DNA from: Chitinophagales bacterium
Lineage (GTDB): Bacteria; Bacteroidota; Bacteroidia; Chitinophagales; BACL12
Length of the DNA stretch: 64,000 bases
Assembly (NCBI GenBank): GCA_019694895.1
Contig: JAIBBA010000001.1
Coordinates: 13,403-77,402, forward strand
Reading direction: 5' to 3'
Positions 2,672-52,231 of the stretch are shown here, one piece after another. The notes beneath the pieces are model-generated. The model was not told where the DNA came from and did no database searches. It saw only the letters and a program-made list of their open reading frames with translations. The first letter of the stretch is position 1, and each line of letters begins with the position of its first letter. Both the position numbers and the translations under genes were made by a program.

Positions 2672-5068
2672 ATGAAAAAATATACACTTCTGGTATTGAC
2701 CCTCGCCATTTCTATGGGTCTGAAGGCTCAATACCCTCTCGTGGAGATCTACGACATCCAATATAAAGATGCTGCCGCCCTGGCTGCAGAAGATGATCTT
2801 TCTGCGTACGATGGCGATACGGTCAGAATACAAGGTATCGTTACTTTTAACCCTTGCGATTATGCCCTGTCATCTACCGGAAGCCGCATGGGAACATGGT
2901 TGCAGGATGAAGACGGCGGTCCATTCTCAGGAATTCACGTACTCATCGACTTCTCTGCCATCGGTTATACCGATCTTGAATCTTTAAATGATGCAACCTT
3001 GTTTGTAGATAATTTCCAGGTAGGGAATATCGTAGAATGCACAGGTATTGTTAACTCCTTTGAAGGAAATACTCAATTCTTGCTGTTACCGATAGAAACA
3101 AGTATTGTTGGCTTCACAACCTTGCCGACTCCTGTTCCTGCTGAAGTGAGCGAGCTTGAAGTGAGTGATGGCGCAGGCGGACAGGTAATTAATACAGTCG
3201 ACGGAGAGCAATATGAAGGACGTTATGTGGAGTTTACGAATGTGTATGTTACTGATGTTACACCTTCGGGATTGCGTTGGTTCTGGTACTTACAGGATGC
3301 TGATGGAAACAAGATTCAGATCCGCGATGTGAGTGGCCACTTCCGCAATGATACTTACGACGATGAATGTAATATGTGGGCCGGTGGTGCAGCAGGTGAA
3401 ACGAATACACCTGATGCCTATACACCGCCTGCAATTGGAACTAACCTGGCTTATGTAAGAGGTGTTATTCTGGAATTCACCGCTGCTACCCAATATGGTA
3501 TCGCTCCATTAACATTGGAGGATATTGGCCCTTCTTTGTTGTCACCACCTATCATTACAGATATTACCAGAACACCGGTAGTAGCAACACCTGCTGATGA
3601 GGTTACTATTTCTTGTTCAATTACTGATCTCGACGGCACAGTTGCTTCAGCTGATCTTTATTACAGCTATGGCTATGGCAGCACTGATTGGAACCTTGCA
3701 ACTATGTCTAATACCGGTGGCGATAGCTGGGCCGGCGCAATTCCGGGTCCCGGTATTGACAGTACTTATGTAAATTATTATATCACAGCTTTTGACGATG
3801 ATGGCAATAGTATTTCAAACCCGACTGCCGCTGCTCCCAATACATATATTGTATATGCCGATGGTATAAACTCCATCGTTCAAATTCAGAATACACCTTA
3901 TACTTCAGGAGCATCTGTTTGGGCAAATGATAGCATTGCCGATATGCAAATCGAGGCCATCGTTACCTCAACTACACAGACCTACGATCTCGGAATGGTC
4001 GCTGTGCAGGAAGGTGAAGGTGCCTATGAAGGTATTTTTATCAAATCTGTCCCCGGCGATGGCACTGATGTGTTAAACCGCGGCGACCTGATTCGTATTA
4101 CCTCAGGTAAAGTGATTGAGGAATTTGGTGTTACCAAACTCACAAACATTACCTATACCAAACTTTCTGAAATGAACGACCTCCCTGCTTTCCATACAGG
4201 GTTAAATCCGTTGGATGTAGACGCCAAGCTATATGCCGCTACTGAACCATGGGAAGGGATGCTTGTGCGTTTCGACAATGCTTTTGTTACCTCAAACAAT
4301 GCTGATGCCGCTACCGGCGGTGCTTTTGGCGAGTGGAGGGTGAACCTCAGCAATACCCCTGAAGTTGGCATGCGCTGCGATGACTACTCTTATGAGTTGC
4401 CTTTCGAATTTGGCACAGACAGCCTTGCTATGGGGCAGTCGCTCAGCTATATCCAGGGCTTGATGTATTACAGTTTTAGTAACTGGAAACTCCTTCCTCG
4501 CGATAAAAATGATATCGATGGATACCACACCACCTATCCAAACAGTATCGTCCTTTTCAATTTCACCACTCCGGTAGCTAGCGGAGCTATCGATCAGGCA
4601 GCAGGTACTATCACCCTGACCGTACCGGTAGGAACTGATGTAACAGCCTTAGTGCCCACTATAGACTACACAGGACAGTATGTTGACCCGGTAGGAGGGG
4701 TAGCTCAAAACTTCACTTCTCCGGTCAATTATACATGCTTTTCACCGGTAGATTATACGCCTAAAACCTACGTGGTTACGGTGAATTTCGGGGTTTCGGC
4801 AACTGCACTTGCCATGGCTGAAATGACCGTTTCCCCTAACCCTGCGACTGACGAAATGACCGTTGAAATTGACATGCCGTCAGCATCAGACATTACCTTC
4901 GATCTTCTGGATTTAGAAGGACGTAAAGTGCTGACAACCAGCGAGTTATGTACTGTGGGAAAAAATATTTTCAGATTTGATTTGAGGGGACTTTCAAACG
5001 GATTATATTTGCTTCAGTTAAGTTCTTCAACAGAAACTACGATACGAAAGATAGAGGTTTCCAGATAA
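2672..5068 (+). CDS. T9SS C-terminal-sorting-domain secreted multidomain protein
   Basis: Signal peptide MKKYTLLVLTLAISMGLKAQ. The last ~80 aa (VSPNPATDEMTVEIDM...GLYLLQLSS...IRKIEV) form a typical Por/T9SS type A CTD. The body contains three IYDIQ/IVQIQ-type OB-like modules and Ig-like modules. Confidence 0.8.
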   Translation: MKKYTLLVLTLAISMGLKAQYPLVEIYDIQYKDAAALAAEDDLSAYDGDTVRIQGIVTFNPCDYALSSTGSRMGTWLQDEDGGPFSGIHVLIDFSAIGYTDLESLNDATLFVDNFQVGNIVECTGIVNSFEGNTQFLLLPIETSIVGFTTLPTPVPAEVSELEVSDGAGGQVINTVDGEQYEGRYVEFTNVYVTDVTPSGLRWFWYLQDADGNKIQIRDVSGHFRNDTYDDECNMWAGGAAGETNTPDAYTPPAIGTNLAYVRGVILEFTAATQYGIAPLTLEDIGPSLLSPPIITDITRTPVVATPADEVTISCSITDLDGTVASADLYYSYGYGSTDWNLATMSNTGGDSWAGAIPGPGIDSTYVNYYITAFDDDGNSISNPTAAAPNTYIVYADGINSIVQIQNTPYTSGASVWANDSIADMQIEAIVTSTTQTYDLGMVAVQEGEGAYEGIFIKSVPGDGTDVLNRGDLIRITSGKVIEEFGVTKLTNITYTKLSEMNDLPAFHTGLNPLDVDAKLYAATEPWEGMLVRFDNAFVTSNNADAATGGAFGEWRVNLSNTPEVGMRCDDYSYELPFEFGTDSLAMGQSLSYIQGLMYYSFSNWKLLPRDKNDIDGYHTTYPNSIVLFNFTTPVASGAIDQAAGTITLTVPVGTDVTALVPTIDYTGQYVDPVGGVAQNFTSPVNYTCFSPVDYTPKTYVVTVNFGVSATALAMAEMTVSPNPATDEMTVEIDMPSASDITFDLLDLEGRKVLTTSELCTVGKNIFRFDLRGLSNGLYLLQLSSSTETTIRKIEVSR

Positions 5069-5098
5069 CATTTTTGCCATTGGAAACCTGTTTTGGTT

Positions 5099-17616: not shown

Positions 17617-17644
17617 TTAAATCATAACACTTTAATAAAAAGAC

Positions 17645-17675
17645 AAAAGCCCTGCTCTATTGAGTGGGGCTTTTT
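17645..17675. terminator. bidirectional Rho-independent terminator
   Basis: AAAAGCCCT ... GGGGCTTTTT hairpin flanked by an A-run and a T-run, between convergent susD-like and pbpC genes. Confidence 0.7.
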
Positions 17676-17713
17676 GATTATTAAATGTATCAAGCTGCAC
17701 ACTACTTGCTACC

Positions 17714-17783
17714 AATCGTGAATCGTGACTCGTGAGTCGTGAATCGTGAGTGGTGAGTGGTGAGTGGTGAGTGGTGAGTCGTG
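17714..17783 (+). repeat. phased heptanucleotide tandem array, 10 units
   Basis: AATCGTG AATCGTG ACTCGTG AGTCGTG AATCGTG AGTGGTG AGTGGTG AGTGGTG AGTGGTG AGTCGTG, head to tail with no phase break. Confidence 0.95.
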
Positions 17784-17806
17784 AATTTTTACCTGATACC
17801 TGTCAA

Positions 17807-17845
17807 CTCACCACTGACCCACTCACCCACTGACCCACTCACGAT
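17807..17845 (-). repeat. inverted arm of the same repeat family (GTGAGTGGGTSAGT units on the minus strand)
   Basis: CTCACCACTGACCCACTCACCCACTGACCCACTCACGAT is the reverse complement of ATCGTGAGTGGGTCAGTGGGTGAGTGGGTCAGTGGTGAG. It is near-identical to 50796-50828 and complementary to the 17749-17783 array. Confidence 0.85.
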
Positions 17846-17850
17846 TTCCC

Positions 17851-20190
17851 TCAAAAGAACTCGACCATGATCTCGATATCGACATTCCTGCCTTTATCAT
17901 CACTGCAACTGATCTTTGTTTTTCCTTCAGCGGGATCGAAAAATACAGGTTCTCCTGCATTAACTGAAGTGAGTAATTTATCGTTGATATACCAGAATAT
18001 GGTTTTGACATCTGAAGCAACATTGGCTGACAACATGATGCGCTGAGGATCATCTTTTTCAATCAAATATTCCATTTGATCAGCAGGAGATGTAATTGAA
18101 GGCATCTGATCGCTGAACATGCGTTCACATTTCGGGTTGTGTGGAGGAATACTTTCAAATGGCAAATGTTTTTCCTGCATCCAGCTGATGATCTGAGGAG
18201 AATAATTTTGATATTGTTTGACTTTATAACCCGTTTCAGGTTTACAAGTATTGCAATAGCTTATAGTTTCTTTCGGATCAACCATTACATCTATTAAATG
18301 TGTGCAACTATCATTTTTTGAAATGCCGGGTATGAAATAATCCATTACTACATGCGAACAATTTGCAGTAGGAATTTCACCACTAACTTCACATACATAT
18401 CTGAATTGAACAGATTCCGGCATGCGATTCCAGTCCGCATCAACATCTGACCCTAAAACCTGAAAAATATTAAATAACAATGGTGTAGCCACATTTGCAC
18501 CACTCAATTCTGGAACACCGCGTCCACTGAAATTGCCAACCCATACGCCAACCGTATATTGTTCATTATAGCCGATACTCCAGGCATCCCGACGACCGTA
18601 GGATGTCCCGGTTTTCCAGGCAACACGAGGAACTTTCTTAGCATTCTGGTAAAATAATGGAAGATCAGGTCGGGTTAATTCGCTCAGAATTTCTGTAGTC
18701 ATGAATGCGGCGGCTTCCGTAAATACAGGCGTTGCGGTTGTATCATTGTCGGATTGTAAATACCTGATATGCGGCGATTTCCCGTTATTTGGAAATGCGG
18801 AATAGGCACGTGTCAATTCCTCCAGCGTTATACCACAACCTCCTAATGCTACAGATAATCCAAGATCTTTTCTTTGATTGGTGAGTGATGAAAATCCTGC
18901 GCGCTGTAACATGTTCAGAAAATCTTCCATCCCAATTTCATGCAAGGTTTTTACAGCCGGAACATTCAAAGAATTTGCGAGTGCATAAGTTATAGAAACA
19001 TTTCCATGATAGTCTTCATCATAATTTTCCGGTCGGTAACCGGTGTAATTAATCGGGACATCACTTACAATAGATTGAGGTGTGTATATCCCTTTATCAA
19101 AAGCCATCGCATATAATAGCGGCTTTAACGTACTTCCCGGAGACCGGACTGCTTGCACACCGTCTACTTGACCGCCATCACGCTCATTAAAGAAATTTGC
19201 AGAACCAACATAAGCCACCACTTTGTGACTTTTATTATCAATGACTATTGCAGCCCCATTATTGATATCTAGCGCCCATAATTGACCAACATAATTACTC
19301 ATGACTTCCTCACATTGCGATTGCAGTTGTGGTTGGAGTGTAGTTTTAATAATTGGATCGGCAGGAAATTCCATCCGCATACGTGTGCTGAAATGTCTTG
19401 CCAGTTGCGGGATTTCAGTTCGCTTTGCGTTAAACGGTTCTGCAAGCGCGTCATCTATGATGTCATCTGAAAACAAATCTGCATTTCTGAATTTTTCCAA
19501 CCATTTATTTCGCTCAACAATGATCTGTGCATTGTTTTGACCGGGCACCAGTGAGGTCGGCCGATTAGGAATAATGCTCAATGCCGTTAATTCTGAAAGT
19601 GATAATACTGCCGGCATTTTTTGCAGATAAAGTATGGATGCAGCTTTTACGCCTTCAATATTACCGCCATAAGGAACCAGATTCAAATACATTTGCAATA
19701 TCTCTTCTTTAGAATACAGCATGTCCAATTGCAAGGCGCGGAACATCTCAACAACTTTATTTCCGTAAGTGCGATCCTTGGGTTCCAGCATACGAGCTAC
19801 TTGCATGGTGATGGTACTGGCCCCTGATGTTCGGTGCCCGGTGCGAATATTATTGAACAGCGCTCTGCATATCGCAAGAGGATTTACTCCGGGATGTAAT
19901 TCGAAATATTTATCCTCCTTAAAAATTATTGCTTTTTGCATTTCCGGCGTGATCTCCGACAACTCAGTCATCATGCGCCATTTATCGTCAGTGGTCAGAA
20001 ATGCGTGCAGTACTGTTCCATCAGCTGCAGTTACAGTCTGCGAATAATCAATCTTAACATGCATCGGAAATACCAGGTTCAACAGCAGAAACAAGGTGAA
20101 AACTATCAGCACTGTGGCAAGCGCATGATGAATTATCCGCAAAATACGTGCACGTGAAAAGAAGTTTCTAAATGTAGGGAGTAATCCCAT
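17851..20190 (-). CDS. pbpC: penicillin-binding protein 1C (bifunctional glycosyltransferase/transpeptidase)
   Basis: N-terminal TM anchor. GT51 motifs EDKYFELHPG and GASTITMQ. Transpeptidase motifs STLK, SLN, KTG. A ~100-aa C-terminal beta domain, as in PBP1C. Confidence 0.9.
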   Translation of the reverse strand: MGLLPTFRNFFSRARILRIIHHALATVLIVFTLFLLLNLVFPMHVKIDYSQTVTAADGTVLHAFLTTDDKWRMMTELSEITPEMQKAIIFKEDKYFELHPGVNPLAICRALFNNIRTGHRTSGASTITMQVARMLEPKDRTYGNKVVEMFRALQLDMLYSKEEILQMYLNLVPYGGNIEGVKAASILYLQKMPAVLSLSELTALSIIPNRPTSLVPGQNNAQIIVERNKWLEKFRNADLFSDDIIDDALAEPFNAKRTEIPQLARHFSTRMRMEFPADPIIKTTLQPQLQSQCEEVMSNYVGQLWALDINNGAAIVIDNKSHKVVAYVGSANFFNERDGGQVDGVQAVRSPGSTLKPLLYAMAFDKGIYTPQSIVSDVPINYTGYRPENYDEDYHGNVSITYALANSLNVPAVKTLHEIGMEDFLNMLQRAGFSSLTNQRKDLGLSVALGGCGITLEELTRAYSAFPNNGKSPHIRYLQSDNDTTATPVFTEAAAFMTTEILSELTRPDLPLFYQNAKKVPRVAWKTGTSYGRRDAWSIGYNEQYTVGVWVGNFSGRGVPELSGANVATPLLFNIFQVLGSDVDADWNRMPESVQFRYVCEVSGEIPTANCSHVVMDYFIPGISKNDSCTHLIDVMVDPKETISYCNTCKPETGYKVKQYQNYSPQIISWMQEKHLPFESIPPHNPKCERMFSDQMPSITSPADQMEYLIEKDDPQRIMLSANVASDVKTIFWYINDKLLTSVNAGEPVFFDPAEGKTKISCSDDKGRNVDIEIMVEFF

Positions 20191-49557: not shown

Positions 49558-50706
49558 ATGCAACAACGCATTATAGTAAAAACATTTCAGGGATTTGAAA
49601 GCATACTGGCGTCAGAATTGTTTGCGCTTGGAGCTACGGATGTTGAGGTGTTAAACAGGGCTGTGCAATTTAAGGGTGATAAAGCCCTGTTATATGCCGC
49701 AAATATTCACCTGCGTACGGGATTAAAAGTGATGATACCGCTTTTAGAAGGCAGAGCCCGCAATGAACAACAATTGTACGACCTGGTGAAACAATTCGAT
49801 TGGGGTGATGTAATGCGTGTTGATGATACTTTTAGTATTTCTCAAGCCATTTATTCGAGGTTTTTTCCGCATGGAAATTATGCTGCATTGAAAATCAAAG
49901 ATGCCATTGCAGACCATTTCCGTGATGCTTTCGGAATGCGACCAAGTGTGGACAGGGATAATGCAGTAATTCAATTACACGTGCATATTGCTGAAGACCA
50001 GATTCAAATTTCACTTGATAGCTCGGGCGACAGTCTCCACTTGAGAGGATACCGCACCGGAACTCATGCTGCACCGATGAGTGAAGTGCAGGCAGCCGGC
50101 TTGATCTTGCTGAGTGGTTGGGATCAGAAAACTACATTTTATGACCCTATGTGTGGCAGCGGCACTATGCCTATTGAAGCAGCACTTATTGCTGCGAATG
50201 TTGCTCCCGGACTCATCAGAAAACACTTTGCATTTCAGCGTTGGCACGACTATGACACCGCTCTCTACCGACAGCTTATTTTGGATGCTGCAGCTAAGGT
50301 GAAGCGAAATAAATTACATGTGTTAGGATCAGATATCAATGGCAGGAACGTGGATCTTGCACAGGCGCATGCTATTGCCGCGCTTCCTGACATGAAGATA
50401 CCATTCTTCAAAAAAGACTTTCAGCTTGCAGATCCGCCTCCAGAAAAGGGTGTTGTGATTATGAATCCGCCCTATGGTGAGCGATTACAGCACGCCGATA
50501 TGATAGCATTTTATCAGATGATTGGCAACGTGCTCAAACAAAAATATGCCGGTTGGACAGCCTGGGTTTTCACCGGTAATCTGGAAGCAGCAAAGTTTAT
50601 CGGCCTCAAACCATCCGAAAAATACAAACTCAAAAACGGACCATTGGATGCCCTGTTTTTGAGATTCGATATTAGAGAAGGTAAGTTCTGGAAGGGGCAG
50701 GGGTGA
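49558..50706 (+). CDS. THUMP-domain class I SAM-dependent RNA methyltransferase (RlmL/K N-terminal-like)
   Basis: N-terminal ferredoxin-like/THUMP region, SAM motif DPMCGSGTMPIEA, catalytic NPPYGERL. ATG 49558 was chosen because the ORF-track start lies inside the upstream terminator. The stop TGA (50704-50706) lies inside the first unit of a tandem repeat. Confidence 0.88.
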   Translation: MQQRIIVKTFQGFESILASELFALGATDVEVLNRAVQFKGDKALLYAANIHLRTGLKVMIPLLEGRARNEQQLYDLVKQFDWGDVMRVDDTFSISQAIYSRFFPHGNYAALKIKDAIADHFRDAFGMRPSVDRDNAVIQLHVHIAEDQIQISLDSSGDSLHLRGYRTGTHAAPMSEVQAAGLILLSGWDQKTTFYDPMCGSGTMPIEAALIAANVAPGLIRKHFAFQRWHDYDTALYRQLILDAAAKVKRNKLHVLGSDINGRNVDLAQAHAIAALPDMKIPFFKKDFQLADPPPEKGVVIMNPPYGERLQHADMIAFYQMIGNVLKQKYAGWTAWVFTGNLEAAKFIGLKPSEKYKLKNGPLDALFLRFDIREGKFWKGQG

Positions 50707-50735
50707 GTGGGTGAGTGGTGAGTGGTGAGTGGGTG
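50700..50735 (+). repeat. tandem GGG(G)TGAGT / GGTGAGT array (about 4.5 units)
   Basis: GGGGTGAGT GGGTGAGT GGTGAGT GGTGAGT GGGTG. The array begins within the last codons of the THUMP methyltransferase gene. Confidence 0.9.
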
Positions 50736-50766
50736 CATTTGTCTCACTACTCAATACCCACTACCG

Positions 50767-50828
50767 AATCGTGACTCGTGAATCGTGAATCGTGAATCGT
50801 GAGTGGGTGAGTGGGTCAGTGGGTGAGT
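50767..50828 (+). repeat. phased heptamer/octamer tandem array homologous to 17714-17783
   Basis: AATCGTG ACTCGTG AATCGTG AATCGTG AATCGTG AGTGGGTG AGTGGGTC AGTGGGTG AGT. Flanks CACTACT...CTACC (left) and TTTACCT (right) are shared with the 17.7-kb locus. Confidence 0.93.
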
Positions 50829-50863
50829 TTACCTCGCCGAGAAGGCGGGTGGTGAGTTATTTC

Positions 50864-50889
50864 CCCGACCTGCGGTCGGGATTTTTTTT
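50864..50889 (+). terminator. Rho-independent terminator embedded in the repeat element
   Basis: CCCGACC tgc GGTCGGG A TTTTTTTT. Confidence 0.8.
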
Positions 50890-50901
50890 GCCTTTAATAA
50901 A

Positions 50902-50954
50902 ACTCACCCACTCACCCACTCTCCTTTCTCCTTTCTCCTCTCTCCTCCTTTTTC
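50902..50954 (+). repeat. inverted arm (ACTCACCC x2) followed by a CTCCTYY heptamer array in a 36-nt pure pyrimidine tract
   Basis: ACTCACCC ACTCACCC ACT, then CTCCTTT CTCCTTT CTCCTCT CTCCTCC TTTTTC. Positions 50919-50954 contain only C and T. Confidence 0.9.
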
Positions 50955-50980
50955 AACAGGTTATCCACATATGCCGAAAA

Positions 50981-51131
50981 TTGTGTACACAACTCCTGAA
51001 TCCCATGTACCGCAAGGCGTCTGTTGTACCTGAAACCCTGTACTGACAAGGGGTTTAAATTTCGAAAGGGGTAGGTACATGTGTGTGGATATTGTAGTTG
51101 TACCACATAAATGCCTCTGTACCAAAGTACT
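50981..51131. promoter_or_regulatory. cluster of TGTACC/GTAC motifs, including a 12-bp perfect palindrome (candidate regulator-binding array)
   Basis: GTAC starts at 50985, 51007, 51026, 51040, 51075, 51100, 51119 and 51127. TGTACC occurs 4 times on the plus strand and once on the minus strand. TTGTGTACACAA (50981-50992) is a perfect palindrome. The cluster lies upstream of the 51245 gene. Confidence 0.35.
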
Positions 51132-51244
51132 GTGTGCATTAGATTATTTCGTTGAGATAGTGGTTTCATTCAATTTTGAATAAGGCAAGGGGGCTATCTG
51201 CGGTCCGGTTCAACCGCAATGGCGAAAAATCCTGCCTGTCTTGT

Positions 51245-52231
51245 ATGAATGAAGAGAAGAAAAGCGGTACCCGTGGAAGGGTGCTGTACTTGTTACTCAT
51301 CCTACTTCTTCTGGGGATGAACGGATGGTTGTTCTTCAATGCGGCTCAAAACAAAGACGACCGCGAGAAGAGTGCCCGTTTGTTGGAAGAAGCCAAGATT
51401 GTAAACGCACAACTGGAGCAACAGTATCAGACTGCAAAGAAGCAGTTAGACGATCAGAAGGGTGATTTCACCCAGAAAGACAGTCTTATTGCGGTATTGG
51501 AGGCTGAATTGACTTCTCGAAGGAATGAGATCAATGCCCTGTTGAAGACTTGTGATTTCTTCAAAGGCAATGTAAAAACCAATGAGAAGAAAATTGATGA
51601 GGTGAAAGAGGAAGTGAAGACGATGGAAGTAGATTGTAGTTCTTACAAGGCTCAGCTCGACGAACTAAACGCGCGTTATCTGGCATTGCAGGAAGATTAT
51701 GAAGAACTGCAATTCTTGTATGAGCAGGAAGTTGAGCGCAGTGAACAGTTGCAATTTGACAAAGATTCGATTCTTGATCTTGCCGGTTTCATTTTGTCGA
51801 AAGACATCAATATTACCGGTGTTCGCAAAAAAGGAAATGGCAATGATTCAGAAGGACAAAATGCGAAGCATACTGAAATGTTGAAAGTATGTTTTGATGT
51901 GTTGCCGAATAGATTATCGGCGGGTAAGAATCAAACATTTTTACTGCGTATCATAAGCCCGACAGGTAAAGTGTTATACGATCAGACAAGTGGCTCAGGA
52001 GAGTTTGTGAATAAGGAAAAACCTGAAGACAATACTTATACCACCAGCCTTACAGTAAAATATGACGGAGGTGAAGTTGAGAGTCACTGTGTATATTGGG
52101 AACAATCAGATGAATTTAAACCGGGAACTTATACCGTAAAAATTTATCACAATGGATACCTTTCAAGTCGCAGTTCATTTACCTTGAAAAAACCGGTAAT
52201 GGAAGACTTGATGGATAAAGTTAAAGGGTAG
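51245..52231 (+). CDS. membrane-anchored coiled-coil protein with C-terminal beta-rich domain (hypothetical)
   Basis: ATG 51245 gives MNEEKKSGTRGRVLYLLLILLLLGMNGWLFF, an N-terminal TM anchor. About 170 aa of heptad-rich E/K/Q/L sequence follow, then a ~150-aa beta-type domain. The ORF-track start at 51176 is a TTG. Confidence 0.6.
   Translation: MNEEKKSGTRGRVLYLLLILLLLGMNGWLFFNAAQNKDDREKSARLLEEAKIVNAQLEQQYQTAKKQLDDQKGDFTQKDSLIAVLEAELTSRRNEINALLKTCDFFKGNVKTNEKKIDEVKEEVKTMEVDCSSYKAQLDELNARYLALQEDYEELQFLYEQEVERSEQLQFDKDSILDLAGFILSKDINITGVRKKGNGNDSEGQNAKHTEMLKVCFDVLPNRLSAGKNQTFLLRIISPTGKVLYDQTSGSGEFVNKEKPEDNTYTTSLTVKYDGGEVESHCVYWEQSDEFKPGTYTVKIYHNGYLSSRSSFTLKKPVMEDLMDKVKG

What the first reader, a model, noticed from the sequence alone, without database searches (positions are those of the whole stretch)
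50694..50920. Composite repeat element at the 3' end of the THUMP methyltransferase gene, supplying its stop codon
Seen: within about 230 bp the order is as follows. A GGG(G)TGAGT/GGTGAGT array (50700-50735). A CACTACT..CTACC segment. AATCGTG-type heptamers x5 (50767-50801). AGTGGGTG octamers x3 (50802-50825). A small CGCC/GGCG hairpin. A canonical terminator (50864-50889). An inverted ACTCACCC x2 arm (50902-50917). The TGA stop of the methyltransferase (50704-50706) is the TGA inside the first GGGGTGAGT unit, and the last codons (..KGQG) are encoded by the G-rich lead-in. The gene's C-terminus therefore appears to have been remodelled by the element. Segment 50796-50828 is near-identical to the reverse complement of 17807-17845. 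Inference: insertion or expansion of a repeat family at gene 3' ends, with the genuine terminator sitting in the loop of a larger potential hairpin.
Basis: partly seen in the sequence, partly recalled or inferred. Interest (0 to 1): 0.55.

Follow-up and report, generated by a model that had tools for sequence, protein, structure and literature searches.

The report
Heptamer-repeat hairpin cluster after a gene
The 250 bases after this RNA-methyltransferase gene are a real, fast-changing cluster of 7- and 8-base tandem repeats folded into nested hairpins, belonging to a known but unexplained class of bacterial heptamer repeats. It supplies the gene's stop codon but changes only the last three amino acids.

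Summary
A TCTCCTT x4 array (50920-50946) also belongs to it. A second copy with the same architecture lies at 17700-17845. The source is a Chitinophagales MAG.

It is a cluster of heptanucleotide/octanucleotide simple-sequence repeats with unit GTGANTS. Forward and reverse arrays alternate and give nested hairpins. The real intrinsic terminator sits in the loop of one hairpin.

Copy number differs between metagenome samples in steps of 7 (2-6 units), as replication slippage would give. Sister species carry different repeat units (AATTAGC, GTGYCGAC, ATTCCTY) at the orthologous site. Two relatives carry none.

"C-terminal remodelling" is minimal. The repeat-free 88%-identical orthologue has the same length (382 aa, gapless). 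Only the last three residues (EKE to GQG) and the stop (TAA to TGA) differ.

Across 120 fetched loci from many phyla, GTGANTS arrays abut gene 3' ends with the TGA-bearing strand as sense strand (72 vs 22). About half of those contain the stop codon.

It is a new member of a known kind (Xanthomonas GGGAATC, cyanobacterial STRR, TAACTGA repeats). Its function is unproven. Moderate-low interest.

The parts
49558..50706 (+). THUMP-domain class I SAM-dependent RNA methyltransferase gene (382 aa); last codons AAG GGG CAG GGG TGA
   Evidence: Pfam RlmL_1st + THUMP + UPF0020. 100% identical to P0001, a Chitinophagales MAG protein.
50692..50735 (+). Forward (F) array 1: G-rich lead-in AAGGGGCAGG, then GGGGTGAGT GGGTGAGT GGTGAGT GGTGAGT GGGTG. 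It holds the stop TGA 50704-50706.
   Evidence: TRF period 7, 4.3 copies. Sequence. L003 has two more GGTGAGT units.
50745..50765 (+). Reverse-type (R) degenerate heptamers CACTACT CAATACC CACTACC; 3' arm of hairpin 1
   Evidence: Pairs with GGTGAGT units in both RNA folds.
50767..50801 (+). F array 2: AATCGTG ACTCGTG AATCGTG AATCGTG AATCGTG
   Evidence: TRF period 7, 5.3 copies. Invariant in all samples.
50802..50830 (+). F array 3: octamers AGTGGGTG AGTGGGTC AGTGGGTG AGT; 5' arm of hairpin 2
   Evidence: TRF period 8. Inverted repeat I2, 92% complementary to 50900-50924.
50833..50857 (+). Small hairpin CTCGCC-GAGAA-GGCGGG, then a solitary GGTGAGT unit, inside the loop of hairpin 2
50864..50889 (+). 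Intrinsic terminator: CCCGACC-TGC-GGTCGGG followed by A T8
   Evidence: Terminator scan: 7 pairs, 6 G-C, loop 3.
50900..50921 (+). R array: (AA)ACTCACCC ACTCACCC ACTC; 3' arm of hairpin 2, lying beyond the terminator
50920..50946 (+). CT-rich heptamers TCTCCTT x3.9; they pair with the G-rich coding tail / array 1 as the outermost stem
   Evidence: TRF. Outer stem in the fold. L001 has one unit fewer.
17700..17845 (+). Second copy of the same architecture between convergent genes. In order: R-type CACTACT TGCTACC; xxTCGTG x5 (17714-17748); AGTGGTG x4 (17749-17776); AGTCGTG; loop (17784-17805); R arm ACTCACC ACTGACCC ACTCACCC ACTGACCC ACTCACGAT (17806-17845).
   Evidence: There are 2, 3, 4 or 6 AGTGGTG units in different samples.
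17636..17675 (.). Bidirectional-looking terminator of the SusD-like gene (ends 17616), upstream of the second copy
   Evidence: Sequence AAAAGCCCTGCTCTATTGAGTGGGGCTTTTT. Identified by reading the sequence, not by a scan.
17851..20190 (-). PBP1C-type penicillin-binding protein gene. Its stop (17851-17853) is 5 nt from the arm, which reads as a forward GTGAGT-type array on this gene's own strand.
   Evidence: ORF list. Pfam Transgly/Transpeptidase/BiPBP_C.

Best explanation
This is a cluster of heptanucleotide (and derived octanucleotide) simple-sequence repeats of the unit family GTGANTS (GTGAATC, GTGAGTC, GTGAGTG, GTGAGTGG).

Architecture. Forward arrays are followed by reverse-complement arrays. 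On either strand the region reads 'GTGAGT-type arm, loop, ACTCAC-type arm' and can fold into long nested hairpins.

Dynamics. The arrays grow, shrink and mutate unit by unit through replication slippage. This makes the spacer hypervariable between strains and species. The variation is shown; slippage as its cause is inferred.

Effect on the gene. The forward strand carries TGA once per 7 bases, so TGA falls in all three reading frames within 21 nt. The reverse strand carries no stop codon at all. An array can therefore creep up to, and over, the end of a gene that reads into its forward strand without lengthening the protein. Here it has replaced ..GAG AAA GAG TAA-like codons by GGG CAG GGG TGA. 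That changes three non-conserved residues and the stop codon, but not the length.

Orientation rule. Purifying selection on translation signals would explain why the forward end of such arrays abuts gene ends. This step is inferred.

RNA level. The terminated mRNA carries two or three stable stem-loops between the stop codon and the terminator. The largest hairpin needs read-through or single-stranded DNA to form. A function for these structures, such as 3'-end protection or a brake on termination, is possible but unproven.
For: Anatomy and non-randomness.

Copy-number polymorphism in whole units between samples of the same species:
- Locus B: +14 bp (two GGTGAGT units) in L003 and -7 bp (one TCTCCTT unit) in L001.
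- Locus A: 2, 3, 4 or 6 AGTGGTG units. The right arm varies independently. Assemblies break or hold N gaps exactly there.

Turnover at the orthologous site:
- P0005 species: GTGYCGAC x5 or x2, plus ATTCCTY and GGTAGTGAGTAGTG arrays that differ between three samples.
- P0004 and P0003 species: AATTAGC(A/C) repeats whose first unit holds the TAG stop.
- P0006 and P0002 species: no repeats.

Minimal protein change: same length and gapless alignment with P0002. Tails are variable in all homologues.

The general class:
- In 823 kb around 120 hits, period 7 dominates: 441 arrays against 35 of period 6 and 93 of period 8.
- 114 of 128 pattern hits lie in longer in-register arrays. Their consensus is G-T-G-A-(G/A)-T-(C/G), with variation concentrated at positions 5 and 7.

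Orientation rule:
- Inverted partner downstream in 48 arrays against upstream in 2.
- Lone forward arrays start a median 4 nt after a co-oriented stop. The median is 32.5 nt for genes ending at the other side (p = 0.014).
- Among nearest arrays to gene ends, the sense strand bears the stop in 72 cases against 22 for this family. The stop codon lies inside the array in 35 of the 72.

The same positional preference and inter-strain length variation were reported for Xanthomonas GGGAATC and Nostoc GGGGA(C/T)T repeats (PMC4692102).
Against: - The two window copies share more than a unit. Both have a CTACC lead, exactly five xxTCGTG units including one ACTCGTG, then GTGAGTGG-type units, and both hold the rare GGGTCAGT variant. 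Independent local slippage does not predict this. It suggests duplication, dispersal or gene conversion.
- Related Lewinellaceae/Saprospiraceae MAGs have dispersed palindromic elements. There the same heptamer arms flank a conserved inner stem with compensatory changes. Part of the family therefore behaves like a mobile or structurally selected element.
- The orientation bias is significant only for the GTGANTN family. For other heptamer units it is 34 vs 27, not significant. The general 'stop-codon filter' is therefore not established.
- The polymorphism comes from assemblies, not reads.
- Gene ends were inferred from longest open frames, not from annotation.
- No expression or 3'-end data exist.
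Confidence: 0.65

Rival explanations
1. It is a copy of a non-autonomous mobile palindromic element (REPIN- or MITE-like). Its arms happen to be made of heptamers. It was inserted at gene 3' ends and afterwards blurred by slippage.
For: - The two window copies share order, unit counts and a rare variant unit.
- Several MAGs carry 5-14 copies each among the fetched loci.
- Lewinellaceae/Saprospiraceae copies have conserved cores and outer ends (CAGGCCTGTAAT...). 5 of 22 stem pairs show compensatory change.
Against: - There is no conserved core, fixed length or recognisable end shared by the two window copies. Their loops are unrelated, and one holds a terminator.
- A scan for the leader/array junction found no same-species copy.
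- No further copy lies in about 18 kb of extra flank, so there are 2 copies in about 82 kb.
- Sister species have other units at the same site.
- There is no transposase among the Pfam-annotated neighbours.
- REP tags (unpaired GTAG/CGTC, stems of 5-13 bp; PMC3733652) do not fit.
Confidence: 0.2
2. It is a selected 3'-UTR module. The stem-loops between stop codon and terminator protect the mRNA 3' end, reinforce or make bidirectional the termination, or slow ribosome release at the stop. REP elements within about 15 nt of a stop codon do this in E. coli (Liang, Rudd & Deutscher 2015, cited from my own knowledge; not found in the library).
For: - The folds are very stable.
- Hairpin 1 starts 6 nt after the stop.
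- The arrays sit between stop and terminator at both loci. At locus A both convergent genes meet a forward arm first.
- F-loop-R order is 48:2.
- Stems are maintained with compensatory changes in related elements.
Against: - Arm copy numbers vary independently between samples: left 2-6 units, right 5-6 units.
- The largest hairpin's 3' arm lies beyond the terminator, so it is absent from the terminated RNA. The terminated RNA folds only modestly better than shuffles (z = -2.7).
- Two close orthologues do without any repeat.
- Lone arrays are as often next to gene starts as next to gene ends (59 vs 59 among all 127 arrays; 35 vs 36 among lone arrays).
Confidence: 0.2
3. The arrays are binding sites for a sequence-specific factor, or form non-B DNA. 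Candidates are a heptad-spaced protein such as a cold-shock-type ssRNA/ssDNA binder, a GANTC methyltransferase acting on GTGA[N]TC units, or a G-quadruplex as proposed for GGGAATC repeats.
For: - Positions 1-4 and 6 of the unit are fixed while 5 and 7 vary, as in the Xanthomonas (GGGANTN)n repeats (PMC4692102).
- GTGAATC, GTGACTC and GTGAGTC all contain GANTC.
- Regulatory hints exist for Nostoc heptamers (bioRxiv 10.1101/2022.06.06.494920).
Against: - There is no canonical G4 motif on either strand at either locus.
- GTGAGTG/GTGAGTGG units lack GANTC.
- In viral contigs the unit is no commoner as a triple repeat than two permuted controls: 4 hits vs 5 and 10.
- No candidate protein was identified.
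Confidence: 0.07
4. It is a chance resemblance or an assembly artefact.
For: Some assemblies break or carry N gaps at the arrays.
Against: - Motif counts are 14-50 times the expectation, and no shuffle reaches them.
- The same sequence is found in independent ENA, Logan and NCBI assemblies.
- The arrays are shorter than a sequencing read.
Confidence: 0.01

Closest known systems
Xanthomonas GGGAATC / (GGGANTN)n and Nostoc GGGGA(C/T)T heptamer repeats (Rehm et al. 2015, PMC4692102)
   Same: - Intergenic tandem heptamers with heterogeneous units in which positions 1-4 and 6 are fixed.
- Some occur as inverted pairs.
[quoted passage not shown]
- Length and sequence vary between close relatives.
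- Function is unknown.
- The unit differs from ours by one base (GGGAATC vs GTGAATC).
   Different: - Position 2 is T here, so there are no G-tracts and no canonical G-quadruplex motif.
- Octamer derivatives occur here.
- Several arrays are stacked here into nested hairpins around a terminator.
- The host is a Chitinophagales bacterium.
Cyanobacterial STRR short tandemly repeated repetitive heptamers (Mazel et al. 1990; my own knowledge, cited within PMC4692102)
   Same: Dispersed intergenic heptamer arrays of a few unit families per genome, polymorphic enough to be used for strain typing.
   Different: The units differ (CCCCAGT, TTGGTCA, CAACAGT). The palindromic F-loop-R arrangement and stop-codon overlap were not described for them, as far as I know.
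TAACTGA direct repeats of Beggiatoaceae, Cyanobacteria and a few Bacteroidetes (MacGregor 2015, PMC4679880)
   Same: - A heptamer with a stop triplet, so stops in all frames in forward orientation.
- Intergenic, immediately next to ORF boundaries.
- Patchy cross-phylum distribution.
- TAACTGA-type arrays also occur in the loci fetched here.
   Different: They lie mostly a few nt upstream of start codons. They occur as direct repeats with almost no inverted copies. The unit is different.
REP / BIME / REPIN elements mobilised by RAYT transposases (PMC3116915, PMC3733652)
   Same: Intergenic, often after stop codons or between convergent genes. Inverted dimers give long hairpins. Proposed roles are in termination and mRNA stability.
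   Different: REPs are unique-sequence 20-40 nt palindromes with an unpaired GTAG or CGTC tag and a linked transposase. Here the arms are simple-sequence arrays that change copy number, and no tag, core or transposase was found.
Long simple sequence repeats of prokaryotes, with heptamers over-represented (Mrazek, Guo & Shah 2007; as summarised in PMC4692102 and PMC4679880)
   Same: Period 7 dominates among tandem repeats in the genomes that carry this family. Polymerase slippage is the proposed origin.
   Different: That work is a statistical survey. It does not describe this unit, the palindromic stacking or the stop-codon capture.

Membership tests
Intergenic heptanucleotide tandem repeats (long SSR / STRR-type) | Head-to-tail units of 7 nt, at least 2-3 copies | tested here: met
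   TRF found GGTGAGT x4.3, GAATCGT x5.3 and TCTCCTT x3.9, plus period-8 derivatives.
Intergenic heptanucleotide tandem repeats (long SSR / STRR-type) | Non-coding location close to ORF boundaries, with the G-rich strand downstream on the coding strand | tested here: met
   Both window loci fit. In the fetched loci the median gap to a co-oriented stop is 4 nt, and the sense/antisense count is 72 vs 22.
Intergenic heptanucleotide tandem repeats (long SSR / STRR-type) | Same unit family at several dispersed loci of one genome | tested here: inconclusive
   There are two loci in about 82 kb of this species. The whole genome was not available. Other MAGs show 4-14 loci each among the fetched hits.
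Intergenic heptanucleotide tandem repeats (long SSR / STRR-type) | Copy-number variation in whole units between strains | tested here: met
   Differences of +14 and -7 bp at locus B. 2, 3, 4 or 6 units at locus A. Arrays in sister species also vary. These are assembly-level data only.
G-quadruplex-forming heptamer repeats (GGGAATC type, Rehm 2015) | At least four G3+ tracts with loops of 1-7 nt | tested here: not met
   A regex scan of both loci on both strands found no match.
REP / REPIN | Conserved unique-sequence palindrome of 20-40 nt with an unpaired GTAG or CGTC tag | tested here: not met
   The arms are repeat arrays and the loops of the two copies are unrelated. GTAG occurs only inside degenerate units. 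Criteria are from PMC3733652.
REP / REPIN | Inverted dimer able to form a long hairpin | tested here: met
   Folds with z = -7.5, -5.5 and -6.5.
REP / REPIN | Cognate RAYT (IS200/IS605-type Y1 transposase) in the genome | not testable with these tools
   Only about 82 kb of the genome is at hand. No such domain appears among the Pfam-annotated genes.
MITE | Fixed length, conserved interior and terminal inverted repeats | tested here: not met
   Length changes with unit number. The interiors are unrelated. The leader junction does not recur in the same species.
MITE | Target-site duplication flanking the element, and an empty site in relatives | not tested
   The boundaries are fuzzy. Relatives have other repeats or a rearranged neighbour gene at the site.
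Intrinsic (Rho-independent) terminator | G+C-rich stem-loop directly followed by a U tract | tested here: met
   Met only for 50864-50889. The large repeat hairpin is followed by ACTCTCCTTTC.., not by a U tract.

The most novel reading that the evidence does not exclude
GTGANTS arrays would be a cross-phylum, orientation-constrained module rather than random slippage debris. The module would be a frame-independent stop cassette (TGA in all three frames) fused to a self-complementary arm. It would be repeatedly seeded at, or spread to, gene boundaries by an unknown sequence-specific process. It would capture stop codons and shape 3' UTRs in Bacteroidota, Chloroflexota, Proteobacteria, Gemmatimonadota and others. 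Three findings hint at this: the 48:2 F-loop-R order, the 72:22 sense bias, and conserved-core palindromic relatives with compensatory changes. The viral-contig control with permuted heptamers and the lack of bias for other units speak against it.
Probability: 0.12. Interest if true: 0.6.

Novelty: new member of a known kind. Interest (0 to 1): 0.33.

Why it matters
- **Open question.** Heptamer repeats are one of the commonest unexplained repeat classes in bacterial spacers. The papers read here state that their role 'remains to be elucidated' (PMC4692102).
- **A concrete case.** This locus shows an array reaching over a stop codon without changing protein length.
- **A testable rule.** The 120-locus survey suggests that the strand carrying TGA faces the incoming gene. 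That could explain the positional preference also reported for Xanthomonas and Nostoc.
- **Practical consequences.** Such arrays break short-read assemblies. They create spurious stop-free ORFs on the reverse strand. They make good strain-typing markers.
- **This window.** The biological consequence is small: three non-conserved C-terminal residues.

Tried and rejected
- **Rfam.** A permissive scan of 50400-51300 gave only sub-threshold chance hits: anti-hemB 22.5 bits against a gathering score of 49.5, and MIR529.
- **Exact-sequence literature search.** Six double-unit strings gave no relevant paper.
- **Metagenome scan.** The scan for the CTACC/AATCGTG junction gave 8 hits, all soil contigs of 57-65% GC and none from this species. 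The 'leader' is therefore not a conserved element end, and the same-genome census failed.
- **Extending the window.** About 10 kb to the left and 8 kb to the right held no further copy. One look-up failed because the ORF start did not match the record.
- **Viral-contig control.** (GTGAGTC)3 gave 4 hits, against 5 and 10 for two permuted heptamers. I therefore do not claim that this unit is specially enriched.
- **G-quadruplex.** No canonical motif.
- **GANTC methylation idea.** It fits only the ..TC units and could not be tested.
- **Splice-site or group II intron resemblance of GTGAGT.** Rejected. There is no intron-like structure or Rfam hit, and the motif is simply the repeat unit.
- **The 84-aa ORF 50792-51046 and the minus-strand ORFs called over the region.** Spurious, because the reverse strand of the arrays is stop-free.
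- **First gene-context script.** Its regex for array limits was too crude, so I replaced it (then).
Full report
**What is there**

The window comes from an uncultured Chitinophagales bacterium. The THUMP-domain RNA methyltransferase (49558-50706; Pfam RlmL_1st, THUMP, UPF0020) is 100% identical to a protein named from Chitinophagales MAGs. It is seen on dozens of contigs.

Downstream of ..TGG AAG GGG CAG GGG TGA the sequence runs as follows.
- A forward array GGGGTGAGT GGGTGAGT GGTGAGT GGTGAGT GGGTG (50700-50735).
- Three degenerate reverse-type units CACTACT CAATACC CACTACC (50745-50765).
- Five xxTCGTG heptamers (50767-50801).
- Octamers AGTGGGTG/AGTGGGTC (50802-50830).
- A small hairpin (50833-50849) and a solitary GGTGAGT.
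- A textbook terminator (50864-50889).
- The reverse arm ACTCACCC x2.5 (50900-50921).

The motifs occur 14- to 50-fold more often than in shuffles, and only at two places in the window.

**Structure**

As RNA, 50690-50950 folds at -125 kcal/mol (shuffles -87+/-5, z = -7.5) into a nested structure.
- The G-rich coding tail and array 1 pair with the CT-rich array.
- GGTGAGT units pair with the CACTACT units.
- The octamer arm pairs with ACTCACCC around the terminator.

The same long hairpin forms in single-stranded DNA (z = -6.5). The 3' arm lies beyond the T-tract. The terminated transcript (to 50889) keeps only the inner stem-loops and is only modestly more stable than shuffles (z = -2.7).

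**A second copy**

17700-17845 has the same order: R-type CACTACT TGCTACC, five xxTCGTG units, AGTGGTG x4, a loop, then ACTCACC/ACTGACCC units ending ..CCACTCACGATT.
- It lies between a SusD-like gene, which has its own terminator, and a convergent PBP1C gene.
- The PBP1C stop is 5 nt from the arm.
- Read on either gene's strand, the nearer arm is the forward, GTGAGT-type one.
- The octamer stretch of locus B matches the reverse complement of locus A at 30 of 33 positions, including the rare GGGTCAGT variant.

**It changes by whole units**

Independent assemblies of the same species differ at locus B. One has two more GGTGAGT units and one has one TCTCCTT unit fewer. Two Logan contigs end inside array 1.

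At locus A the samples carry 2, 3, 4 or 6 AGTGGTG units. The right arm has two alternative unit orders that are not tied to the left-arm count. Two NCBI MAGs have N gaps there. This is the behaviour of simple-sequence repeats under slippage. It also argues against strict selection for a perfect hairpin.

**The gene's C-terminus**

All homologues share ..F(D/E)I(R/K)(E/D)GK(F/Y) and then diverge.
- The nearest repeat-free orthologue (P0002, 88% identity) ends KYFREKE-TAA and is followed after 20 nt by a convergent gene.
- It aligns without gaps, and both proteins are 382 aa.
- The stop is therefore at the same position. Only EKE to GQG and TAA to TGA differ. Four of the five base changes are A to G, towards the repeat unit.

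Orthologues of 72-75% identity carry other repeats at the same place.
- In two species the TAG stop lies in the first unit of an AATTAGC(A/C) array. One of them has an inverted GGCTAATTGGCTAAT arm.
- In a third species the stop is TGA in GAGTGAGGGGTG. It is followed by GTGYCGAC x5 or x2, ATTCCTY arrays and GGTAGTGAGTAGTG units that differ between three samples.
- A fourth species has no repeat, only a plain terminator.

'The repeat supplies the stop codon' is thus true and recurrent. 'Remodelling' amounts to zero to three residues of an unconstrained tail.

**The family elsewhere**

- 114 of the 128 matches lie in longer in-register arrays.
- The unit consensus is G-T-G-A-(G/A)-T-(C/G), with variation concentrated at positions 5 and 7.
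- Hosts include Saprospiraceae, Lewinellaceae and Chitinophaga-type MAGs, each with several loci.
- Hosts also include Brevundimonas and Ferruginibacter isolates, Chloroflexia, Thermomicrobiales, Beta- and Gammaproteobacteria, Gemmatimonadota, cyanobacteria and others, at 35-70% GC.
- In these 823 kb, period 7 dominates all tandem repeats: 441 arrays against 35 of period 6 and 93 of period 8. There are 168 different units, including the published TAACTGA type.

A control in viral contigs tempers the cross-phylum claim. (GTGAGTC)3 has 4 hits, and two permuted heptamers have 5 and 10. I cannot say that this unit is specially favoured.

**An orientation rule**

- 48 of 127 arrays have the complementary array within 220 nt downstream. 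Only 2 have it upstream.
- For lone arrays, a co-oriented gene ends a median 4 nt before the forward end, with 83% within 25 nt. Genes ending at the other side stop a median 32.5 nt away (p = 0.014).
- I then took the nearest period-7 array to each inferred gene end. For this family the sense strand carries the stop triplet in 72 cases, against 22 with the stop triplet on the antisense strand only. The stop codon lies inside the array in 35 of the 72.
- For other heptamer units the bias is absent (34 vs 27).

The forward strand has TGA, and GTG, in every frame within 21 nt. The reverse strand has neither stops nor ATG/GTG/TTG start codons. I infer that selection on translation signals filters where each strand may touch a gene. 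Rehm et al. reported the same preference for GGGAATC and GGGGA(C/T)T repeats without explaining it (PMC4692102). Gene ends here were inferred from longest open frames, so these numbers need checking on annotated genomes.

**Mobile-element rival**

The shared composite order of the two window copies is not what independent slippage predicts.

Palindromic elements in Lewinellaceae/Saprospiraceae MAGs point the same way. Their heptamer arms flank a conserved inner stem (GTGAGTGGCATTCCGTTA...TAACGGAATGCCACTCAC), and 5 of 22 pairs show compensatory change.

Against this:
- The window copies share no core or ends.
- The junction scan found no other copy of this species.
- 18 kb of extra flank holds none.
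- The REP criteria of PMC3733652 are not met.

I rate dispersal of a composite unit as a real but secondary contribution.

**Comparison and verdict**

The closest described relatives are as follows.
- The Xanthomonas (GGGANTN)n and Nostoc heptamers: same fixed positions, one base different, same placement, inverted pairs, inter-strain variation.
- The cyanobacterial STRR repeats.
- The TAACTGA repeats.

It differs from them in three ways. It lacks G-quadruplex potential. It has octamer derivatives. Several arrays are stacked around a terminator.

It is a new member of a known, functionally unexplained kind. For this gene its consequence is small.

Noticed in passing
window 51176-52231; L127-L133: The DUF8429/DUF8428 gene after the THUMP gene is co-directional in the window species but on the opposite strand (convergent) in four related species. 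This is a single-gene inversion with one breakpoint in the repeat-filled spacer.
   Followed up: no
L016, L021, L032, L052, L092, L098, L104, L119 (around the pattern hit): Lewinellaceae/Saprospiraceae MAGs carry a dispersed palindromic element of about 110-130 nt. It has outer CAGGCCTGTAAT ends, heptamer arms and a conserved inner stem GTGAGTGGCATTCCGTTA..TAACGGAATGCCACTCAC. 5 of 22 pairs show compensatory changes. Saprospiraceae SJ208 has a second core, GGYRCTTCGCYCAA..TTGRGCGAAGYRCC.
   Followed up: partly
L001 3800-4075, L002 3855-4082, L003 3869-4096 (= window about 50860-51170, minus strand): Gene callers placed a 75-91 aa ORF with no Pfam hit over the repeat region. It is probably spurious, because the reverse strand of GTGANTS arrays has no stop codon in any frame.
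   Followed up: partly
120 loci L007-L126: Period-7 tandem repeats outnumber all other periods (441 of about 900 arrays), with 168 different units. Ten arrays are of the published TAACTGA type.
   Followed up: partly
L008, L105: Contigs labelled 'Caulobacter sp. UNC279MFTsu5.1' MAG have 41-46% GC and Bacteroidota-like repeat content. The organism label looks doubtful.
   Followed up: no
L171 12624-14896 vs L172 12624-15020 (window about 2672-5070): A Por_Secre_tail protein gene is one 798-aa ORF in an ENA assembly. It is split into 422 + 301 aa, with a 124-bp length difference, in an NCBI MAG of the same species.
   Followed up: no
L127 vs L128/L129, about 480-540 nt after the THUMP stop: In the sister species one sample has ..CATTTTCACACCATTCAC.. 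where two others have ..CATTCACCACTCACCCCTCACCACTCAC... That is a GTGAGTGG-type reverse array next to the convergent gene's terminator. The family is therefore shared, and replaced between samples.
   Followed up: no
window 50695-50702: The coding tail GGGCAGGG matches the E. coli KOPS consensus GGGNAGGG. This is probably coincidence.
   Followed up: no
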